Shown here: positions 1,100 through 61,719 of the stretch, piece after piece | Layout: each line of letters starts with the position of its first letter | Numbering within the stretch: the stretch's first letter is position 1 | Origin: an archaeon UBA543 | GTDB taxonomy: Archaea; Undinarchaeota; Undinarchaeia; Undinarchaeales; UBA543 | Direction: 5' to 3' | DNA length: 64,000 nucleotides | NCBI GenBank assembly: GCA_002502135.1 | Contig: DAPM01000011.1 | Span: forward strand, 7,736-71,735 | The notes under the pieces: model-generated | Seen by the model: the letters and a program-made list of their open reading frames with translations, nothing else | Databases searched by the model: none | What the model was told of the DNA's origin: nothing | Made by a program: the position numbers and the translations under genes

Positions 1100-2149
1100 A
1101 TGGACGTTGGTATAGTCGGCTACGGCTCTTACATCCCAGTTTACAGAATCAAAGTAGAAGCAATAGCGAAAGTATGGGGGCAGGACGCTGAAACAATGAG
1201 AAAAGGCTTGAAAGTCGATGAAAAATCAGTTCCAGCACCAGATGAAGACACTGCAACAATTGCAGTTGAAGCAAGCAGAAACGCTATGCTGAGAGCCAGA
1301 ATCAATCCAAAAAGAATCGGCGCAGTTTATGTCGGCTCTGAATCCCACCCTTACGCAGTTAAACCAACTGCAACAATTCTCGCAGAAGCTTTAGAAGCAA
1401 CTCCAAACCTAACCGCAGCTGACTTCGAATTCGCCTGCAAGGCCGGCACAGCTTCAATGCAGGCAATTTTCGGATTAGTCAAAGCAGAAATGATCGAATA
1501 TGGAGTAGCAGTAGGCTCAGACACTTCGCAGGGAGCACCAGGAGGAGCATTAGAATACACTGCAGCAGCTGGTGGAGCATCATTCATAATCGGAAAGGCC
1601 AATTTAATTGCAAAACTCAACGGCACCCGCTCTTTCACCACAGACACTCCAGATTTCTGGCGCAGAGAACGGCAAGCATACCCTCGCCACGGCGGACGCT
1701 TCACAGGAGAGCCAGCATATTTCAAACACATTCTCACTGCATCAAAAAACATGATGAACGGACTCGGCTTAGAACCAAAAGACATCAACTATTTTGTCCC
1801 ACACCAGCCAAATGGCAAATTCCCTCGCCAAGCAGCCAAGAAACTCGGCTTCACAGAAGACCAACTTCTCCAAGGACTCTTATCACCACAAATCGGAAAC
1901 ACTTACTCAGGCGCTTCACCACTCGGACTCACTGCAGTTCTTGACATAGCCAAACCAGATGAGAAAATCCTCCTAACCTCTTACGGCTCAGGAGCAGGCT
2001 CAGATTCATTTGTCTTCACAGTCACTGATAAAATCCTAGAAGTGCAAGGCTTAGCACCTAAAACCAGCGACTACATTAACAAAAAAAAGTACGTGGATTA
2101 CGGCACTTACGCAAAATATCGGGGGAAAATTAATTTGGCTGATGAATAA
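1100..2149 (+). CDS. hydroxymethylglutaryl-CoA synthase (archaeal HMGS)
   Basis: 349-aa ORF with a condensing-enzyme fold and N-terminus [11 protein letters not shown]. It is the first gene of the HMGS/thiolase/DUF35 trio typical of archaeal mevalonate pathways. Confidence 0.88.
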
Positions 2150-2154
2150 AATAT

Positions 2155-2188
2155 CGGGGCGCCGTGGAACCGGGGCGCAGGGGCGCCG
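2155..2188. repeat. GC-rich GGGGCGCC-type cluster in the HMGS-thiolase spacer
   Basis: The sequence is cggggcgcc gtggaac cggggcgc a ggggcgcc, set in AT-rich flanks. The same 8-mer recurs at 4593-4624. Confidence 0.7.
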
Positions 2189-2190
2189 AA

Positions 2191-3351
2191 ATGAGTAAGA
2201 AAGTAGCAGTAATCGGAGTTGGAATAACTAAATTCGGCGAGCTCTGGAACGAATCATTCAGAACACTTTTTGTAAAATCAGGAACTCAGGCAATTCAGGA
2301 TGCAGGAATCAGCTCAAAAGACATTGATGCGCTTTTCGGCGGAAACATGAGTGGCGGACAATTCATCAAACAGGAACACCTCGCCTCCTTAGCAATGGAT
2401 CACACAGCTCTCCTTCCAAAACCTGCAATGAGAGTCGAAGCAGCATGCGCATCCGGCGGAATGGCAGTTTCAGCAGCTTACATGGGAATAAAATCTGGAA
2501 TGTATGATGTTGTAGCAGCTGGTGGTGTTGAAAAAATGACAGACGTGCTCACAAACCGCACAACCGGCGCACTTTCAACAGCTGCAGACCAGGAATGGGA
2601 ATCTTTCCAGGGCGCAACTTTCCCTGGACTTTATGCAATGATCGCCAGACGCCACATGCACGAATATGGAACAACAGAAGAGCAGATGGCTGAAGTTGCT
2701 GTAAAAAACCACTACAACGGTTCCAAAAACCCAAATGCCCAATACCAGCGTGAAATAACAGTAGATCAGGTCATGAATTCTGCAAAAATAGCAGACCCAA
2801 TCAAGCTCCTAGACTGCTCACCAATAAGCGACGGAGCAGCTGTAGTAATCCTGGCAGGTGAAGAAACAGCAAAACTGGTCTGCGACGACCCAATCTGGCT
2901 TGTCGGAACCGGCCAAGCAACTGGCTCAATCGCTCTACACAACCGAAAAGACATCTGCACACTCAATGCAACCGTAGAAGCTGCAAAACGGGCGTATGGA
3001 ATGGCAGAACTCAGGCCAAAAGACATATCCTGCGCAGAAGTGCACGACTGCTTCACAATTGCAGAACTCTGCGCAATTGAAGATCTTGGCTTCTGCGACA
3101 AAGGCAAATCCGGCCAATTTGTCCAGGACGGACACACTCGAGTCACTGGCTCAATTCCAATCAACACTTCAGGTGGCCTGAAAGCAAAAGGTCACCCAGT
3201 TGGAGCAACAGGCGTAGCTCAAGTAGTAGAAGCAGTTCTGCAACTCAGAGGAAAAGCAGGCGCTCGTCAAGTAACAGATCCTGAATATGTTCTCACTCAC
3301 AATGTCGGCGGTAGTGGAGGTACTGCGAGTGTTCACATTTTCGGAAGATGA
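2191..3351 (+). CDS. acetyl-CoA C-acetyltransferase (archaeal thiolase)
   Basis: Track ORF 2164-3351. I prefer the ATG at 2191 (MSKKVAVIGVG...). Thiolase strings are present: the active-site Cys context EAACASGG and C-terminal NVGGSGGT. Confidence 0.88.
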   Translation: MSKKVAVIGVGITKFGELWNESFRTLFVKSGTQAIQDAGISSKDIDALFGGNMSGGQFIKQEHLASLAMDHTALLPKPAMRVEAACASGGMAVSAAYMGIKSGMYDVVAAGGVEKMTDVLTNRTTGALSTAADQEWESFQGATFPGLYAMIARRHMHEYGTTEEQMAEVAVKNHYNGSKNPNAQYQREITVDQVMNSAKIADPIKLLDCSPISDGAAVVILAGEETAKLVCDDPIWLVGTGQATGSIALHNRKDICTLNATVEAAKRAYGMAELRPKDISCAEVHDCFTIAELCAIEDLGFCDKGKSGQFVQDGHTRVTGSIPINTSGGLKAKGHPVGATGVAQVVEAVLQLRGKAGARQVTDPEYVLTHNVGGSGGTASVHIFGR

Positions 3352-3740
3352 CAGAAGTTCCAAGATTCTGGAGGGAAATACCACAGCGTTACAATTTAAT
3401 CGGCAATAAATGCAGAAAGTGTGATTGGATTAACTTCCCGCCTAGAAGCATCTGCAAAAAGTGCAATGACCATGATTTCGAGCGCTTCGACCTGAAAGGA
3501 GAAGGCAAAATAATAACCTACACAATAATCAGAGCAGCTCCTCTTGGTTTCGAAGACTTAGTTCCTTATGCTATTGCAATTATCAGATTGGACGACGGCC
3601 CAAGAATCACAGCACAAATTGTTGACTGCGATTCCTCTGAAGTTGATATAGGAAAAAGAGTTAAAGTGTGCTTCCGCAAGATTGCAGAGGATGGGAAAGC
3701 TGGCGCAATCTCGTATGGTTACAAGTTTAAACTAGTATGA
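3348..3740 (+). CDS. DUF35 OB-fold/zinc-ribbon protein (thiolase-HMGS scaffold subunit)
   Basis: 130 aa with a CxxC...CxxC ribbon (CRKCDW...CKKCN). Its start overlaps the thiolase stop. The gene order is the conserved one. Confidence 0.82.
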   Translation: MTEVPRFWREIPQRYNLIGNKCRKCDWINFPPRSICKKCNDHDFERFDLKGEGKIITYTIIRAAPLGFEDLVPYAIAIIRLDDGPRITAQIVDCDSSEVDIGKRVKVCFRKIAEDGKAGAISYGYKFKLV

Positions 3741-4915
3741 AAACTTCCAGAGTTTCAGGATTTTACAAAAAAACACTTACAGAAAGACTCAATTTTGTAA
3801 AAGATTTTGCAGAATTAACAGAAGAAGAAACCAATCAACTAAATTCAAATCTAAACCAGGAAACAGCAGAAAAAATGCTCGAAAACGTAATCGGCACTTT
3901 CTCACTCCCAATCGGAGTTGCAGTAAATTTCCTAATCAACAATAAAGACTATATCATCCCAATGGTTCTGGAAGAGCCATCAGTTATTGCAGCAGCATCC
4001 AATGCCGCTAAAATCGCCAGAGAATCCGGTGGATTCACAACTTCTTCAGATGAGCCAGTAATGATTGGGCAAATTCATGTGATGGGGGCTAGGGAACTAG
4101 GGGGCGAGGGGGCTAGGAAAATAGTAGAAATGAAACAAGAACTCCTCAATTTAGCAAATTCTCAAGATCCAACCCTAGTAAATTTCGGAGGAGGCGCAAA
4201 AGACCTTGAAGTAAAAGAATTCTCCAACTTCCTCAGAATCCATCTTTATGTCAACTGCCAAGATGCAATGGGTGCAAATGCAGTTAACACAATGGTAGAA
4301 GCAATAGCTCCAAAAATCACAGAAGCAATAGGAGGAACAGCAGTTCTGAAAATCATCTCAAATCTTGCAGACCGCAGATTAGCCAGAGCAGAATGCACTT
4401 TCAAGAAAGAATTGCTCGGCGAAGACACAATCAACTTAATCCTGAAAGCCTACCAAATCGCTTCAGAAGACCCATACCGCGCAGTAACTCACAACAAAGG
4501 AATAATGAATGCAATTAGCGCAATCTGCTTAGCAACCGGAAACGACTGGAGGGCAGTTGAAGCAGGAGCGCATGCGTTTGCAAGTTGTGGAAGGGGCGCC
4601 GGGGCAGCGGGGCGCCGGGGCAGCGAACTACCAACTACCAACTACAAACCACTAACCACTTACGAACTAACACCAGAAGGCGACTTAAAAGCAAGCATCG
4701 AACTCCCATTAGCAGTAGCAACAGTCGGCGGCTCAACAAAACACCCACAAGCTCAAGTCAATTTAAAAATTTTAGGAGTAAAATCATCAAAAGAATTAGC
4801 GCAAGTAATTGCAGCAGCAGGATTAGCACAAAACTTCGCAGCTCTAAAAGCAATTACAACAGAAGGAATTCAGAAAGGACATATGAAACTGCACGAACGC
4901 AAATCAACCCAATAA
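3737..4915 (+). CDS. hmgA: hydroxymethylglutaryl-CoA reductase (class II-like)
   Basis: 392 aa with the strings ENVIGTFSLPIGVA, EEPSVIAAASNAAK, DAMGAN and GGSTKHP. It contains two GC-rich low-complexity inserts, listed as separate repeat features. Confidence 0.88.
   Translation: MKTSRVSGFYKKTLTERLNFVKDFAELTEEETNQLNSNLNQETAEKMLENVIGTFSLPIGVAVNFLINNKDYIIPMVLEEPSVIAAASNAAKIARESGGFTTSSDEPVMIGQIHVMGARELGGEGARKIVEMKQELLNLANSQDPTLVNFGGGAKDLEVKEFSNFLRIHLYVNCQDAMGANAVNTMVEAIAPKITEAIGGTAVLKIISNLADRRLARAECTFKKELLGEDTINLILKAYQIASEDPYRAVTHNKGIMNAISAICLATGNDWRAVEAGAHAFASCGRGAGAAGRRGSELPTTNYKPLTTYELTPEGDLKASIELPLAVATVGGSTKHPQAQVNLKILGVKSSKELAQVIAAAGLAQNFAALKAITTEGIQKGHMKLHERKSTQ
4084..4117. repeat. GC-rich direct repeat inside the HMGR coding sequence
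   Basis: gggggctagg (4084-4093) is repeated at 4108-4117, separated by gaactagggggcga. It encodes the GARELGGEGAR segment. Confidence 0.65.
4593..4660. repeat. tandem 16-mer (x2) followed by tandem 7-mers inside the HMGR coding sequence
   Basis: ggggcgccggggcagc occurs at 4593-4608 and again at 4609-4624. It is followed by aactacc, aactacc, aactaca, aaccact, aaccact (4626-4660). Together they encode GRGAGAAGRRGSELPTTNYKPLTT. Confidence 0.85.
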
Positions 4916-5767: not shown

Positions 5768-7447
<1,680 letters not shown>

Positions 7448-10424: not shown

Positions 10425-10987
10425 AACTCACCAAAACCCAGGGAGATTTCCTCCTCAAACTTGCAAGAAACACCCTCACTGCACATCTTTCTGGAACAAC
10501 TCACAAAAAACCAGCAACTTATGACAAAATCTTAGACGAGGAACGTGGAGTTTTCGTAACACTCAATACTTTAACTGGCGACCTCCGCGGTTGCATTGGC
10601 TACCCAGAACCAACAAAACCACTAATAGACGCTGTAATGGACTGCGCAGTCCACTCTGCAACACAGGATCCGCGCTTCCCTAAAGTAACAAAACAAGAAC
10701 TCTCCAACCTAAAATTCGAAATAACAGTTCTAACACCTCCTGAATTAATGGAAGTAAAACATTCAGCTCAATACACCCACGAAATCACAATTGGGAAAGA
10801 CGGATTGATTGTTGAGCAGGGAACTAATAAAGGCCTCCTGCTTCCGCAAGTGGCTTGGGACTGGGAATGGAATGAAAAACAGTTCTTAGAACATACTTGC
10901 AAAAAAGCATGTCTCCCAAAAGACGCTTACCTTGACTTGAAAAAAACAAAAATCTACAAATTCCAAGGGCAGATTTTCAAGGAATAG
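10421..10987 (+). CDS. AMMECR1-domain protein
   Basis: 188 aa with the strings GVFVTL...LRGCIG and DPRFP. Confidence 0.85.
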   Translation: MKLTKTQGDFLLKLARNTLTAHLSGTTHKKPATYDKILDEERGVFVTLNTLTGDLRGCIGYPEPTKPLIDAVMDCAVHSATQDPRFPKVTKQELSNLKFEITVLTPPELMEVKHSAQYTHEITIGKDGLIVEQGTNKGLLLPQVAWDWEWNEKQFLEHTCKKACLPKDAYLDLKKTKIYKFQGQIFKE

Positions 10988-15412: not shown

Positions 15413-16222
15413 ATGAAAGTTGAACTCTCCACAAACCACTGGATAAAACCAACATACCACTCAGCAGACGTGGCAGTAGAAAAAGCAGAAGCACTCGGCT
15501 TCAAACACATCCAAATCGGAACTCCTCACTTCACCGGCGACTTAGACAGAATTGTGGAACTTCGAAAACAACACAAATTAACTTACTCAGTTCACGCTCC
15601 ATTCTTTGCAGAAAAGAATTTCATAGCAACTGCATCCTTCAAATCACCAAAATTGCTTGAAAGAAGCAGAAAACTCCTCCTAAAATCAATTGAAAACGCA
15701 AACTATATTGGTGCAAAGAAGATTGTAATCCACTCTGCAGAACCGCACCACCATGTCGGTATTCCTCAACTTGTCGAATCAATGGACATTTTCGCAGAAA
15801 AAGCAGAGGAATTCGGAATCACAATCTGTATGGAGAACAAATTCCCGCCAGCAGAAATCGGAAACACAGAAGAGGAAATCTGGGGAGTGCTGAGGGAAGT
15901 TGATCTTCCGAATGTTAAAATGTGTTTTGACACTGCGCATGCAGCAGCAGCACTTGGCTCACTTACTGAAATGCTCCACTTCTTAAGAGACTTAGCACCA
16001 TTAGTCGGCGATGTCCACTTAGTCCCAGTTGACACTTTCAAAAGAATGGATGTTCATGAAGCTCCAAAACCAAATGAGTATTATTACAACAGTGTTATTA
16101 AAATCCTGAAAGATGCAAAATACAAGGGAGACATAACTTTCGAAGCAGTTTTTGATACTGACGAGAATATTTTGAAAGGAATGAAATATATTGAAGGATT
16201 AATCAAGAAATATAAAGCTTAA
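15413..16222 (+). CDS. xylose-isomerase-like TIM-barrel protein (sugar-phosphate isomerase/epimerase or AP endonuclease 2 family)
   Basis: 269 aa. A pattern of metal-ligand His/Glu/Asp (IHSAEP, CMEN, FDTAHA) is spaced as in this fold. Confidence 0.55.
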   Translation: MKVELSTNHWIKPTYHSADVAVEKAEALGFKHIQIGTPHFTGDLDRIVELRKQHKLTYSVHAPFFAEKNFIATASFKSPKLLERSRKLLLKSIENANYIGAKKIVIHSAEPHHHVGIPQLVESMDIFAEKAEEFGITICMENKFPPAEIGNTEEEIWGVLREVDLPNVKMCFDTAHAAAALGSLTEMLHFLRDLAPLVGDVHLVPVDTFKRMDVHEAPKPNEYYYNSVIKILKDAKYKGDITFEAVFDTDENILKGMKYIEGLIKKYKA

Positions 16223-36719: not shown

Positions 36720-36760
36720 TTTAGTAATTGTAAATGAGTAGCCACGAGCAGCTCCAAACC

Positions 36761-36914
36761 TCTGCTGATATTTGAATTGTTGAAATTGGTTAATTGGTTC
36801 TTGACTGGCGCTCCAGAGTGCAGCGCGTACTGCATGAAGCTCCATTCGCTTCGCGAAGGGGCTTAAACAATTCAACTGAAGTTGGTTCAAGCTGTCTGAG
36901 TTAGTTACCTATGA
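36761..36914 (+). mobile_element. ~154-bp repeated structured element, copy A
   Basis: The 88-nt core 36801-36888 is identical at 81/88 positions, without gaps, to 61608-61695. The left arm ctgctgatatttgaattg and right arm tgagtta are shared. It is bracketed by a 26-nt direct repeat (36735-36760 and 36915-40). The strand is inferred from G:U pairs. Confidence 0.7.
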
Positions 36915-41514: not shown

Positions 41515-41543
41515 CTCCGCGGATATTTGAATTGGTTAAATTT
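41515..41543 (+). repeat. solo left end of the 154-bp element (copy C, truncated)
   Basis: ctccgcGgatatttgaattggttaaattt matches 61567-61595 at 28/29 positions. It lies in the 41-nt gap between two convergent genes. Confidence 0.7.
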
Positions 41544-59997: not shown

Positions 59998-60074
59998 TGG
60001 TGGGCTCACAGGGATTCGAACCCTGGTTCGGAGGTCCGAAGCCTCCAGTGATATCCAAGCTACACTATGAGCCC
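59998..60074 (-). tRNA. tRNA-Arg (anticodon TCG), CCA encoded
   Basis: Minus strand reads GGGCTCA TA GTGTAGCTTGGATATCAC T GGAGG CTTCGGA CCTCC GAACC AGGG TTCGAAT CCCT GTGAGCCC A CCA. Confidence 0.85.
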
Positions 60075-60080
60075 ATGCTA

Positions 60081-60190
60081 TGGTGGGCCCAAGGGGATTT
60101 GAACCCCCGATTTGCAGCTTAGAAGGCTTGCGGAAGGCGAAGAAAAAACTCGCGCCCCTTGCCGCCTTATCCAGACTAGGCTATAGGCCC
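60081..60190 (-). tRNA. tRNA-Arg (anticodon TCT) with 32-nt intron in the anticodon stem (non-canonical position), CCA encoded
   Basis: Exon 1 (60190-60160) reads GGGCCTA TA GCCT AGTCTGGATA AGGC G GCA. The intron (60159-60128) reads AGGGGCGCGAGTTTTTTCTTCGCCTTCCGCAA. Exon 2 (60127-60081) reads GC CTTCTAA GCTGC AAATC GGGGG TTCAAAT CCCCT TGGGCCC A CCA. Splicing restores the stem GCAGC/GCTGC. Confidence 0.75.
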
Positions 60191-60930
60191 ATTTTTGTAA
60201 TAACAAAAGGGCTTAACTCCCTTTTTAATATTTTGTATCGCTGTTTTATTGAAGTATTTGGGGGTACAAAGCCATATCTCTTCCATATTTTATACTTTGT
60301 TAAATATACTGGATTCTTAAAACCAATTAAGTCTATCCATTTTTCTACGCGTGCACATCCTTCAACGCAAATAGAATATGCCACAGTGTTATTTCCCCCA
60401 ACTCTTTTATGTAATCTTGTAAAATATTTTATTCCTAATTTGTCTAACATTTTGCACATATCTTCAACCAAAATTTTAGCAACACATTTAATCTGAATTC
60501 TTGGGTAGTTATGATATTTTCTTTTAAATTCAATATATTTCCCATATCTCTTATCAAAATTTAAACAACCATCACCATCAGCAAAACCTCGCAAAAACGA
60601 AGCTAAAACTTCAGTATCCTCACTTTCTCTTATCTGTTTTGGAACTCGCATAGTGTATGTTTTATTACCTGGTTTAAAACCAAGATTATTAAAAAAATCC
60701 CCTATCTTTCTATCACAAGTATAAAATCCATAGACACTATTGCTCGTTTTTTCATGAACTCTCAAGATTATTCCAAAGTTATTTAAAAATATTTTTGTTA
60801 AATGATTATCATAGTACTCTCTATCTTCTGTAATATTTCCCCAGATGCAGACATATGCTTTTTGAAGGCAACCATCTGCGCAAAAGATTCCACAGATTTC
60901 TGCTAATTCTGGAGATATTTCAGTTTTCAT
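60181..60930 (-). CDS. free-standing LAGLIDADG homing endonuclease (double-motif)
   Basis: 249 aa and very AT-rich. The two LAGLIDADG-type motifs are GIFCADGCL and LRGFADGDGCL. The last four codons (ATG GGC CTA TAG) are supplied by the first 10 nt of the tRNA-Arg(TCT) gene. Confidence 0.8.
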   Translation of the reverse strand: MKTEISPELAEICGIFCADGCLQKAYVCIWGNITEDREYYDNHLTKIFLNNFGIILRVHEKTSNSVYGFYTCDRKIGDFFNNLGFKPGNKTYTMRVPKQIRESEDTEVLASFLRGFADGDGCLNFDKRYGKYIEFKRKYHNYPRIQIKCVAKILVEDMCKMLDKLGIKYFTRLHKRVGGNNTVAYSICVEGCARVEKWIDLIGFKNPVYLTKYKIWKRYGFVPPNTSIKQRYKILKRELSPFVITKMGL

Positions 60931-61488: not shown

Positions 61489-61566
61489 CCTTTCAGAACT
61501 AGTTGAGGGTTGTTTATAAAGACTATCCTAAACCACTTTAGAACTTTTTTTAGCAATCCTTCATAA

Positions 61567-61719
61567 CTCCGCTGATATTTGAATTGGTTAAATTTGTGAA
61601 TTTATCATTGACTGGCGCTCCGGAGTGTGGCGCGTACTGCATGAAGCCCTATTCGCTTCGCGAAAGGGCTTAAACAATTCAACTGAAATTGGTTCGATTT
61701 GTTGAGTTAACTGTTTTAA
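61567..61719 (+). mobile_element. ~154-bp repeated structured element, copy B
   Basis: The core 61608-61695 is 81/88 identical to 36801-36888. It is bracketed by a 25-nt direct repeat (61542-61566 and 61720-61744, 23/25 identical). Confidence 0.7.

What the first reader, a model, noticed from the sequence alone, without database searches (positions are those of the whole stretch)
4593..4660. GC-rich tandem 16-mer and tandem 7-mers embedded in frame in the HMG-CoA reductase gene
ggggcgccggggcagc is exactly duplicated in tandem at 4593-4608 and 4609-4624. Five 7-nt units follow: aactacc, aactacc, aactaca, aaccact, aaccact (4626-4660). Neither unit length is a multiple of 3, yet the reading frame of this essential enzyme is maintained. 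The region encodes ...AFAS-CGRGAGAAGRRGSELPTTN-YKPLTTYE... As I recall class II HMGR sequences (around AYA.RSG.Y.SLTTWE), roughly 15 extra residues sit here. The same GGGGCGCC 8-mer occurs in the nearby spacer at 2155-2188. This suggests a small GC-rich sequence that spreads into both coding and non-coding DNA. It is reminiscent of Rickettsia palindromic elements and of mitochondrial GC clusters.
Basis: partly seen in the sequence, partly recalled or inferred. Interest (0 to 1): 0.6.

Follow-up and report, generated by a model that had tools for sequence, protein, structure and literature searches.

The report
Short repeat arrays colonising archaeal HMGR loops
A marine DPANN (Undinarchaeales-like) archaeon carries short G-rich 8-base and C/A-rich 7-base repeat arrays, in frame, in floppy loops of an apparently working HMG-CoA reductase; related arrays sit in non-coding DNA, so this is an unusual but probably harmless by-product of local DNA copying.

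Summary
The exact 2x16-mer at 4593-4624 is far beyond chance. The gene stays in frame, and 15 extra residues lie in a loop predicted to be disordered.

Three (GGGGCNNN)x4 arrays lie on the sense strand of the mevalonate operon. None occurs elsewhere in about 76 kb of this genome.

Only close relatives share the feature. In five sister lineages the same three HMGR loops carry or lack such arrays in a patchy pattern. Units are alike within a lineage and differ between lineages.

Three results show short-patch copying rather than slippage alone:
- Two inserts in L212 share a 23-nt non-repetitive spacer.
- In L081 a 29-nt stretch of the HMGR array recurs at 97% identity in an intergenic spacer, and inverted inside a palindrome upstream of the operon.
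- c1-like copies lie on other metagenome contigs, followed by inverted units.

Best reading (0.55): slippage and template-switch duplications at structure-prone DNA, filtered by reading frame and tolerated in loops. Transposition, a G-quadruplex function or phase variation are not excluded. I rate it a new variant of a known kind, of moderate interest.

The parts
1100..2149 (+). HMG-CoA synthase-like gene, first gene of the mevalonate operon
   Evidence: ORF. The identical protein carries PF08541, and orthologues also carry PF01154.
2113..2124 (+). First copy of the direct repeat AAAATATCGGGG, inside the HMGS tail (codons K-Y-R-G)
   Evidence: Read directly. A second copy at 2148-2159 leads into array c1.
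2148..2159 (+). Second copy of AAAATATCGGGG, at the start of the spacer
   Evidence: It suggests that c1 arose in a duplicated copy of the HMGS 3' end.
2150..2190 (+). 41-nt HMGS-thiolase spacer that exists only in this lineage
   Evidence: In L081, L085 and L086 the two genes overlap (ATGA-type), with no spacer.
2156..2187 (+). Array c1: GGGGCGCC GTGGAACC GGGGCGCA GGGGCGCC
   Evidence: 81% identical to c3 over 36 nt by hand count. 36-37-nt near-copies lie on other contigs, followed by inverted units.
2191..3351 (+). Acetoacetyl-CoA thiolase. The likely true start is ATG 2191; the GTG 2164 start of the ORF list lies inside c1.
   Evidence: The N-terminus MSKKVAVIGVG matches the orthologues' MNKEVAVIGVG. 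Pfam thiolase domains on the identical protein.
3348..3740 (+). DUF35/OB-fold (ChsH2-like) subunit gene
   Evidence: PF12172 and PF01796 on the identical protein and on orthologues.
3737..4915 (+). Class II HMG-CoA reductase, 392 aa, intact
   Evidence: PF00368. E 5e-98 to 6DIO and 2.5e-97 to 1QAX. Motif residues E49, K254, D270 and H382 are invariant. Strain differences are mostly synonymous.
4085..4116 (+). Array c2: GGGGCTAG GGAACTAG GGGGCGAG GGGGCTAG. It encodes G117-R127 (GARELGGEGAR) and fits the canonical G4 motif.
   Evidence: In register with arrays in L083 and L212; absent from L081, L085 and L086.
4589..4639 (+). Insert region c3, codons G285-T301, with a net 45 nt (15 codons) more than canonical HMGRs
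   Evidence: Alignments. pLDDT below 50 at residues 286-299.
4593..4624 (+). Array c3: (GGGGCGCC GGGGCAGC)x2, an exact 16-mer tandem and a four-tract G4 motif
   Evidence: With the G-quadruplex option ViennaRNA gives -30.1 kcal/mol against -20.8 for the hairpin.
4626..4639 (+). Two extra 7-mer units, AACTACC AACTACC
   Evidence: Lineage-specific counterparts are CCACCTT x2 in L081 and YACACTC x4 in L212.
4640..4660 (+). AACTACA AACCACT AACCACT, which is the conserved coding sequence N-Y-K-P-L-T-T and not inserted DNA
   Evidence: Aligns to YKPLT in all homologues.

Best explanation
What it is. These are lineage-specific, in-frame 'expansion segments' of an otherwise normal class II HMG-CoA reductase in a marine Undinarchaeales-like DPANN archaeon. 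They are built from two kinds of short tandem unit: G-rich 8-mers (GGGGCNNN, 3-4 units) and, 3' of them, C/A-rich 7-mers.

How it arises (inferred). DNA that can fold into G-quadruplexes or hairpins provokes replication slippage, which gives tandem units. It also provokes template switching, which copies patches of about 30-100 nt in direct or inverted orientation to nearby sites. Units within an array keep being homogenised by gene conversion or repeated gain and loss.

What survives. Inside genes only two kinds of event survive: those that restore the reading frame, and those that land in loops tolerant of disorder. Three 8-mers add 24 nt, three 7-mers add 21 nt, and one of each adds 15 nt. 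The arrays contain no stop codon in any of the six frames, which makes them easy to tolerate. The encoded Gly/Ala/Arg/Pro- and Pro/Thr/Ser-rich peptides are floppy surface loops, and the enzyme stays functional.

Shown here: the anatomy, the homology between sites and lineages, ectopic copies in non-coding DNA, the disordered-loop location and purifying selection on the gene.

Inferred: the slippage and template-switch mechanism, and near-neutrality.
For: Anatomy.
- Three period-8 arrays lie on the sense strand of one operon, and none elsewhere in about 76 kb.
- Arrays sit in the same three HMGR loops in sister lineages. Units are homogeneous within a lineage and differ between lineages: CTAG / CTCC / CTCA at the c2 site, and AACTACC / CCACCTT / YACACTC for the 7-mers.

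Turnover.
- L081 and L083 are 89% identical yet carry disjoint sets of inserts.
- L083 and L085 have an over-deletion at the c3 site.

Ectopic short-patch copying.
- L212 inserts E_A and E_B share a non-repetitive 23-nt spacer, 20 of 23 identical.
- In L081 a 29-nt stretch, 97% identical, links HMGR with an intergenic site 4.8 kb away. A 33-nt inverted copy lies inside a local palindrome that is a roughly 65-nt insertion relative to the window.
- c1 starts with a duplicate of the HMGS tail.
- c1-like copies followed by inverted units lie on other contigs. One has the same depth as this genome in the source sample (14.1 against 14.1-14.6 in X1) and co-occurs with it in all four runs.

A nucleotide-level process, not protein-level selection.
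- The two 16-mers are read in different frames.
- The arrays use codons that are rare in this genome: GGG is 11% of Gly codons, GCC 8% and GCG 6% of Ala, CGG 7% of Arg.

Tolerance.
- The insert has pLDDT below 50 and lies between secondary-structure elements.
- Motif residues are invariant.
- Strain differences are 13 synonymous against 5 conservative codons.

Specificity to HMGR.
- Among 13 orthologous genes, window-specific internal indels of 2 aa or more fall almost only in HMGR.
- 35 other low-GC HMGR loci, 275 kb in all, have one chance match to GGGGCNNNGGGGC, outside the HMGR gene, and no array.
Against: - The strong preference for the mevalonate operon, and for HMGR in particular, is not explained by a generic mutational process.
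- The exact 16-mer tandem in this genome, at a site shared with lineages about 21-23% divergent in protein, needs recent homogenisation or selection at the nucleotide level.
- No length polymorphism was seen in contigs from about 12 metagenomes, so the arrays are not visibly unstable today. Contigs hide rare variants, however.
- All operon copies are G-rich on the sense strand. With four sites this is not significant, but it is compatible with a function at the RNA level.
- c1-like copies at loci outside the 76 kb show that copying is not only local.
Confidence: 0.55

Rival explanations
1. A non-autonomous mobile element. On this reading a small GC-rich, palindrome-forming repeat, comparable to RPEs, REPs or GC clusters, is moved by some enzyme in trans and inserts into intergenic DNA and, in frame, into genes. 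The arrays in HMGR would be half-elements or remnants.
For: - c1-like 36-37-mers lie on two other contigs, each followed by inverted 8-mer units. One has the depth of this genome in the source sample.
- An E_C-like copy sits in a non-HMGR context next to a 7-mer array.
- The L081 7-mer element occurs at three loci, one of them a palindromic insertion of about 65 nt.
- E_A and E_B are paralogous.
- ATGAATAA / ATGAGTAA flank the c1 insertion like a target-site duplication.
Against: - Only three copies in about 76 kb, all in one operon.
- No other c3-like contig in the source metagenome.
- No shared element ends.
- Unit sequences are site- and lineage-specific, as expected from growth in place.
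- No transposase was linked to them. This was not searched for exhaustively.
- The insert peptides occur in no other protein among 5.8 billion.
Confidence: 0.2
2. A selected nucleic-acid function. The four-tract G4 motifs on the sense strand, or the rare-codon clusters they create, would modulate transcription, translation or mRNA stability of the mevalonate operon. Alternatively the 8-mer and 7-mer arrays would act as a slippage switch (phase variation) for isoprenoid synthesis in a host-dependent archaeon.
For: - The only two canonical G4 motifs in 64 kb are both in HMGR, on the sense strand.
- c3 is predicted to prefer a four-layer G4, at -30.1 against -20.8 kcal/mol.
- Each array-bearing lineage keeps at least one perfect G4 motif: L083 at site B and L212 in E_A.
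- c1 abuts the thiolase start codon.
- Unit lengths are not multiples of three.
- Undinarchaeales retain the mevalonate pathway but lack later steps of lipid synthesis (PMC7414124).
Against: - The G4 motif is not conserved at orthologous sites. c3 has decayed in L081 and L212, and L081, L085 and L086 have no G4 motif at all.
- No unit-number variants were seen in contigs of about 12 metagenomes.
- The C-containing loops allow competing hairpins. Hairpin z-scores run from only -1 to -3.
Confidence: 0.15
3. Adaptive protein loops. The Gly/Ala/Arg- and Pro/Thr-rich inserts would be selected for a protein-level role, such as oligomerisation or docking to the thiolase/HMGS/DUF35 complex. The nucleotide periodicity would be incidental.
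For: - A partly conserved peptide motif GAxxRRGxE sits at c3 in three lineages, with synonymous differences between them.
- GAPGLRGS is shared by L083 and L212 at c2.
Against: - The inserts are lost completely in L085 and in part in the others, without loss of the gene.
- They are predicted to be disordered.
- Identical 16-mers read in two frames, together with rare codons, cannot be explained by selection on the protein.
- The same DNA occurs in non-coding sites.
Confidence: 0.08
4. An assembly or sequencing artefact.
For: Two contigs, L260 and L261, end inside arrays.
Against: The identical arrays appear in independent ENA, Tara and Logan assemblies from several samples and years. Homologous arrays appear in JGI assemblies of other lineages.
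Confidence: 0.01

Closest known systems
Rickettsia palindromic elements (RPEs)
   Same: Short repeats found in both intergenic DNA and, in frame, inside conserved protein genes. There they add surface peptides without destroying function (my own knowledge).
   Different: RPEs are about 100-150 bp, palindromic as a whole, and present in tens of dispersed copies. Here the coding copies are arrays of 3-4 tandem 8-mers (24-32 nt) with or without 7-mer arrays. Copy number is low, and they are concentrated in one operon.
Yeast mitochondrial GC clusters
   Same: GC-rich islands of 30-50 bp in an AT-rich genome. They are structure-forming, are duplicated to new sites, and occur in frame in one protein gene, var1 (my own knowledge).
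   Different: GC clusters are palindromic, numerous and have characteristic flanks. No such termini or abundance were seen here. Period-8 and period-7 tandem substructure is not a feature of GC clusters.
Repetitive potential G-quadruplex sequences with a 3' C-rich tract in Methanomicrobiaceae (Chashchina et al. 2021, PMC8044849)
   Same: Archaeal, interspersed four-tract G motifs followed on the 3' side by a C-rich tract. Both G4 and hairpin folds are possible.
   Different: Those are all intergenic, have a different motif (single-nucleotide loops, C3TC3), occur in both orientations and reach many copies per genome. Here they lie in coding loops, have period 8 and are few.
Slippage-derived low-complexity inserts in housekeeping proteins (for example Plasmodium 'parasite-specific inserts'; cryptic simplicity)
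   Same: Lineage-specific, fast-evolving, disordered inserts in loops of conserved enzymes, generated by replication slippage and tolerated (my own knowledge).
   Different: Those use codon-multiple units and follow the genome's own base composition. Here the units are 8 and 7 nt, G+C-rich against a 40% GC background, and shared with non-coding copies.
Simple-sequence contingency loci (phase variation)
   Same: Tandem units whose length is not a multiple of three, inside a reading frame.
   Different: Contingency loci show unit-number polymorphism within populations and usually have more units. None was seen here.
REP/BIME elements
   Same: Short GC-rich palindromic intergenic repeats built from mosaic units. 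The c1-like copies followed by inverted units resemble them.
   Different: REPs are extragenic, abundant and linked to RAYT transposases. None of this was shown here.

Membership tests
Class II HMG-CoA reductase | PF00368 domain and sequence similarity to solved class II enzymes | tested here: met
   PF00368 on the cluster. E 5e-98 to 6DIO and 2.5e-97 to 1QAX over residues 4-389.
Class II HMG-CoA reductase | Catalytic Glu, Lys, Asp and His motifs (ENVIG, THNKG, GND, GHM) | tested here: met
   E49, K254, D270 and H382 are invariant columns in alignment A1. Their equivalence to Glu83, Lys267, Asp283 and His381 of P. mevalonii rests on my own knowledge.
RPE-like or GC-cluster-like mobile insertion element | Many dispersed copies per genome | tested here: not met
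   Three copies in about 76 kb, all in one operon. Only two more c1-like contigs in the source metagenome. The whole genome was not available.
RPE-like or GC-cluster-like mobile insertion element | Palindromic (hairpin) structure of the element | tested here: inconclusive
   Coding copies are direct arrays with hairpin z-scores of -1 to -3. The extra-operon c1-like copies and the L081 upstream copy are palindromic or followed by inverted units.
RPE-like or GC-cluster-like mobile insertion element | The same sequence present in both coding (in frame) and non-coding sites | tested here: met
   c1 against c3. L081 10882-10910 against 15670-15698, 97% identical.
RPE-like or GC-cluster-like mobile insertion element | Defined termini or target-site duplication | tested here: inconclusive
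   ATGAATAA / ATGAGTAA flank c1, but this equally fits a tandem duplication of the HMGS tail. No common ends among copies.
G-quadruplex-forming sequence | Four runs of three or more G with loops of 1-7 nt | tested here: met
   c2 and c3 are the only matches in 64 kb. c1 has three G4 tracts plus GTGG.
G-quadruplex-forming sequence | Folds as a G4 in solution or in the cell | not testable with these tools
   Only a ViennaRNA prediction: c3 -30.1 against -20.8 kcal/mol.
G-quadruplex-forming sequence (functional) | Motif conserved at orthologous sites | tested here: not met
   c3 has decayed in L081 and L212. L081, L085 and L086 have no motif.
Phase-variable contingency locus | Tandem units not divisible by three inside an ORF | tested here: met
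   8-, 16- and 7-nt units.
Phase-variable contingency locus | Unit-number polymorphism within populations | tested here: not met
   No indels in the arrays in contigs of about 12 metagenomes. The power is low, because contigs drop rare variants and no raw reads were available.
Diversity-generating retroelement target | Reverse transcriptase plus a TR/VR pair nearby | tested here: not met
   An Avd-like gene (PF05635; the bAvd match is below its cut-off) lies 7.6 kb upstream. No RT domain and no TR/VR-like repeat were found in the ORFs and 9 kb examined.

The most novel reading that the evidence does not exclude
Marine Undinarchaeales carry a previously undescribed class of short mosaic repeats: G-rich 8-mer arrays coupled to C/A-rich 7-mer arrays. 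These propagate by templated copy-paste into both intergenic DNA and, in frame, protein loops. They have preferentially colonised HMG-CoA reductase because they act there. One possibility is an RNA or DNA G-quadruplex, or a rare-codon brake, on the rate-limiting enzyme of the mevalonate pathway. Another is a coupled 8+7 frameshift switch in an organism that can obtain lipids from a host.
Probability: 0.15. Interest if true: 0.75.

Novelty: new variant of a known kind. Interest (0 to 1): 0.5.

Why it matters
If the reading is right, even very small, streamlined archaeal genomes generate and keep structure-prone repeat insertions inside a central metabolic enzyme. It also shows that short-patch copying moves the same roughly 30-nt sequences between gene loops and promoter or spacer DNA.

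Practical consequences:
- It marks three insertion-tolerant loops of class II HMGR.
- It gives a natural test case for G-quadruplexes in coding sequence of an AT-rich archaeon.
- It is a warning for annotation and assembly. The thiolase start is mis-called inside array c1, and some contigs break at the arrays.

If a function were shown, it would be a new kind of control on the archaeal mevalonate pathway.

Tried and rejected
- Assembly artefact. Rejected: identical arrays appear in independent assemblies.
- Known RNA family. Rfam at gathering thresholds finds only five tRNAs in the window.
- Stable hairpin as the point of the element. z-scores run from -1 to -3 and c2 barely folds.
- Intron or RNA-level excision (bulge-helix-bulge). 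Considered and rejected, because the inserts stay in frame and free of stops in lineages more than 20% divergent, and part of the peptide is conserved.
- Viral origin. The viral scan for (GGGGCNNN)x3+GGGGC gave 47 unrelated octamer arrays, mostly non-coding minisatellites. A c1 pattern gave two chance hits in a phage gene.
- Metagenome pattern scan. Its one low-GC hit, L212, was decisive.
- Spread into other proteins. The E_A+E_B peptide has no hit among 5.8 billion proteins. Two earlier attempts failed on parameter limits.
- DGR involvement. There is an Avd-like gene upstream but no RT and no TR/VR pair.
- A two-unit GGGGCGCT GGGGCAGG in L081 PolB is conserved coding sequence (LRGALGQ), not an insertion.
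- Read-level polymorphism. Only Logan contigs were on hand, with no raw reads and no RNA run holding the gene.
- The genome-contig scan returned only distant HMGRs, at most 57% identical.
Full report
OBSERVATION

The sequence at 4593-4660 is exactly as described.
- GGGGCGCCGGGGCAGC occurs twice in tandem, at 4593-4608 and 4609-4624.
- G follows at 4625, then AACTACC, AACTACC, AACTACA, AACCACT and AACCACT up to 4660.

The 16-mer pair is beyond chance. TRF scores it 66, and first-order (dinucleotide-based) shuffles of the window give 0.07 arrays of that score or more. GGGGCGCC occurs four times against 0.33 expected.

The 7-mer array alone scores 41, which is not beyond chance, since shuffles give 1.9 arrays of that score or more. 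Its reality rests on counterparts in relatives, described below.

ORF 3737-4915 is intact.

CONTEXT

The window is 40% GC. Four ORFs make up the archaeal mevalonate-pathway cluster:
- 1100-2149: HMG-CoA synthase-like
- 2191-3351: thiolase
- 3348-3740: DUF35/OB-fold subunit
- 3737-4915: HMG-CoA reductase

The reductase is class II. It carries PF00368, with E 5e-98 to 6DIO and 2.5e-97 to P. mevalonii 1QAX.

The closest named relative is a Candidatus Undinarchaeales MAG: 68% identity for HMGR and, for most neighbouring genes, 69-83%. The same DNA is on Tara Oceans scaffolds. The published Undinarchaeales MAGs are marine, about 0.6 Mb and 40-42% GC. They keep the mevalonate pathway while lacking later steps of lipid synthesis (PMC7414124).

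There are three G-rich arrays, not two. All have period 8, all are about 32 nt and all lie on the sense strand of the operon.
- c1, 2156-2187: GGGGCGCC GTGGAACC GGGGCGCA GGGGCGCC
- c2, 4085-4116: GGGGCTAG GGAACTAG GGGGCGAG GGGGCTAG
- c3, 4593-4624

A degenerate scan for (GGGGCNNN)x4, allowing up to 5 mismatches in 20 positions, finds exactly these three in 64 kb, with a null of 0.0. None occurs in a further 8.5 kb upstream or 3.4 kb downstream of the window.

c2 and c3 are the only canonical G-quadruplex motifs in the window. With the G-quadruplex option, ViennaRNA prefers a four-layer quadruplex for c3, at -30.1 against -20.8 kcal/mol. Ordinary hairpin energies are unremarkable.

THE INSERTION

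Alignment with 17 homologues and with PDB sequences shows 15 extra residues between AHAFA and YKPLT.

In an AlphaFold2 model (mean pLDDT 83.5), residues 286-299 have pLDDT below 50. They lie between helix 271-283 and strand 307-311. c2 (residues 117-127) runs from the loop after strand 108-116 into the start of helix 124-131.

The last three '7-mers' (4640-4660) are simply the conserved codons N-Y-K-P-L-T-T. Only AACTACC x2 is extra.

The enzyme looks functional.
- The motif residues E49, K254, D270 and H382 are invariant.
- A strain about 2.5% divergent differs by 13 synonymous and 5 conservative codons.
- None of those changes falls in the arrays.

RELATIVES

Only five sister lineages at 74-79% protein identity are informative. 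Unrelated HMGRs have nothing comparable. 35 low-GC HMGR loci, 275 kb in all, have a single chance match to GGGGCNNNGGGGC, outside the HMGR gene, and no array.

Site by site:
- The c3 insert is shared, with the same 15-codon length, by L081. There both arrays have decayed: GGAGCACG GGGGCACC GGAGCGCA GGGACGTC, then CCACCTT CCACCTT CTACCTT.
- L212 also has the c3 insert, with seven more codons in its 7-mer array. A peptide motif GAxxRRGxE is conserved with synonymous differences, so this insert is ancestral to the clade.
- c2 is matched in register by GGGGCTCC x3 in L083, and by GGGGCGCC followed by GGGGCTCA x3 in L212.
- A third site, between strands 153-161 and 165-173, carries arrays in L083 and L212 only.
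- L085 and the Undinarchaeales MAG L086 have none.

L081 and L083 are 89% identical yet have disjoint sets of inserts. L083 and L085 have a loop at the c3 site that is shorter than canonical.

Two features point to continuing turnover with many losses. Units are homogeneous within a lineage and differ between lineages, for both the 8-mers and the 7-mers.

EVIDENCE FOR COPYING, NOT ONLY SLIPPAGE

1. In L212 the inserts at two sites have the same architecture. It is a G-rich 8-mer array, then GAAAATAAC(A/G)AATC(T/C)TC(T/A)CCTAC, then a 7-mer array of ACTGCCC, ACTACCC and ACAACCC units. The non-repetitive 23-nt spacer is 20 of 23 identical, so the two inserts are paralogues.
2. In L081 the 29 nt at 10882-10910 comprise the 7-mer array plus the conserved P-L-T codons of HMGR.
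   - They recur at 97% identity at 15670-15698, just upstream of the SecF TATA-like box.
   - They recur inverted, at 88% over 33 nt, at 7257-7289.
   - That inverted copy lies inside a local palindrome, which is a roughly 65-nt insertion relative to the window in the region upstream of the operon.
3. c1 sits in a 41-nt spacer that relatives lack, because their HMGS and thiolase genes overlap.
   - The spacer begins with a second copy of AAAATATCGGGG from the HMGS tail.
   - It is followed by a second ATGA(G)TAA. This looks like a duplicated gene end in which the array grew or was pasted.
4. In the source metagenome two other contigs carry 36-37-nt near-copies of c1, with 5-6 mismatches, followed by inverted 8-mer units (GGTTCCAC, CGGCGCTCC).
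   - One has depth 14.1, the depth of this genome in the source sample (14.1-14.6).
   - It co-occurs with this genome in all four runs examined.
5. An E_C-like 36-mer next to a different 7-mer array sits in a non-HMGR context in two other runs.

STABILITY

Contigs of about 12 metagenomes show no unit-number variant in the arrays of the window genotype or of L212. Only assembled contigs were available, so rare variants would not be seen.

WHY NUCLEOTIDE LEVEL

The two identical 16-mers are read in different frames, as GAGAA and as GRRGS.

The arrays use codons that are rare in this genome. GGG is 11% of Gly codons, GCC 8% and GCG 6% of Ala, and CGG 7% of Arg.

G/C-only sequence has no stop codon in any of the six frames. 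That explains why such DNA can persist in an ORF once the frame is restored. Three 8-mers add 24 nt, three 7-mers add 21 nt, and one of each adds 15 nt. The net insert is 45 nt.

INTERPRETATION

The best-supported reading is mutational. Structure-prone G-rich DNA undergoes slippage, giving tandem units. It also undergoes template switching, giving short direct or inverted copies at nearby sites. Selection then keeps only in-frame outcomes in disorder-tolerant loops. I put this at 0.55.

Three things remain unexplained:
- the preference for HMGR. Among 13 orthologous genes compared, window-specific internal indels fall almost only there;
- the perfect 16-mer tandem at an old site;
- the uniform sense-strand orientation.

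These keep three rivals alive:
- a genuine mobile element like an RPE, REP or GC cluster (0.2);
- a nucleic-acid function such as a G4 or rare-codon brake, or a frameshift switch (0.15);
- an adaptive protein loop (0.08).

An artefact is excluded by the independent assemblies.

COMPARISON WITH KNOWN SYSTEMS

It works most like Rickettsia palindromic elements and yeast mitochondrial GC clusters, which are short repeats shared between spacers and gene loops. It fails their defining features of abundance and overall palindromy.

It also resembles slippage-born low-complexity inserts, but those do not use units of 8 and 7 nt against the base composition of the genome.

The repetitive G4 motifs with 3' C-rich tracts of Methanomicrobiaceae (PMC8044849) are the nearest archaeal precedent. 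They are strictly intergenic and have a different motif.

I found no description of such arrays in archaeal HMGR.

VERDICT

This is a new variant of a known kind, with interest 0.5.

Noticed in passing
window 36752-36895 and 61559-61702 (partial third copy 41515-41543): A 144-nt direct repeat, 85% identical. It has a shared AT-rich, promoter-like 5' part (CTCCGCTGATATTTGAATTGGTTAAATTT) and a GC-rich core (GACTGGCGCTCC.GAGTG..GCGCGTACTGCATGAAGC...). There is no Rfam hit. It may be a small non-coding RNA gene family.
   Followed up: partly
window 2164-2191: The mechanical ORF start of the thiolase (GTG 2164) lies inside array c1. The start that matches the orthologues' N-termini is ATG 2191. Automatic gene calls on the same DNA (395 aa) include the array.
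   Followed up: yes
L258 1951-2304 (7.6 kb upstream of the operon, outside the window): A four-helix-bundle gene matches PF05635 (23S rRNA intervening-sequence protein, E 1e-35) and, below its cut-off, bAvd. No reverse transcriptase domain and no TR/VR-like repeat were found in the ORFs and 9 kb examined.
   Followed up: partly
L097 and L130; L093, L096, L101, L104, L116, L117 (viral contigs): Non-coding GGGGCGCT / GGGGCACT octamer arrays in unrelated low-GC viral contigs differ in unit number between near-identical contigs (4 against 7 units). In one group they are followed by CCAACGCT-type octamers. This is octamer minisatellite behaviour elsewhere.
   Followed up: partly
L085 3408-4916: In one sister lineage the DUF35/OB-fold gene and HMGR are fused into a single 502-aa ORF.
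   Followed up: no
L086 10001-11200: The Undinarchaeales MAG HMGR has a 25-residue N-terminal segment (NSEPISNQGFASKTSECPRPSSAAR, 56% GC) that the window gene lacks.
   Followed up: no
L260 end (c3) and L261 end (c2): Two independent metagenome contigs stop inside the G-rich arrays, so the arrays break short-read assemblies.
   Followed up: no
window 60001-60074 and 60084-60190: Two adjacent tRNA genes on the minus strand. The second is 107 nt long, so it probably contains an intron. The neighbouring ORF 60181-60930 has a faint LAGLIDADG_3 hit on record.
   Followed up: no
window 4626-4660, runs X2 and X3: Small contigs in a metagenome that holds a related strain consist of longer (AACTACN)n 7-mer arrays without the G-array on their 5' side. 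This suggests another locus with the same 7-mer family.
   Followed up: partly
window 4331-4543 and 4751-4765: Differences between the window allele and a co-occurring strain cluster in two patches flanking c3. That may mark a recombined segment.
   Followed up: no
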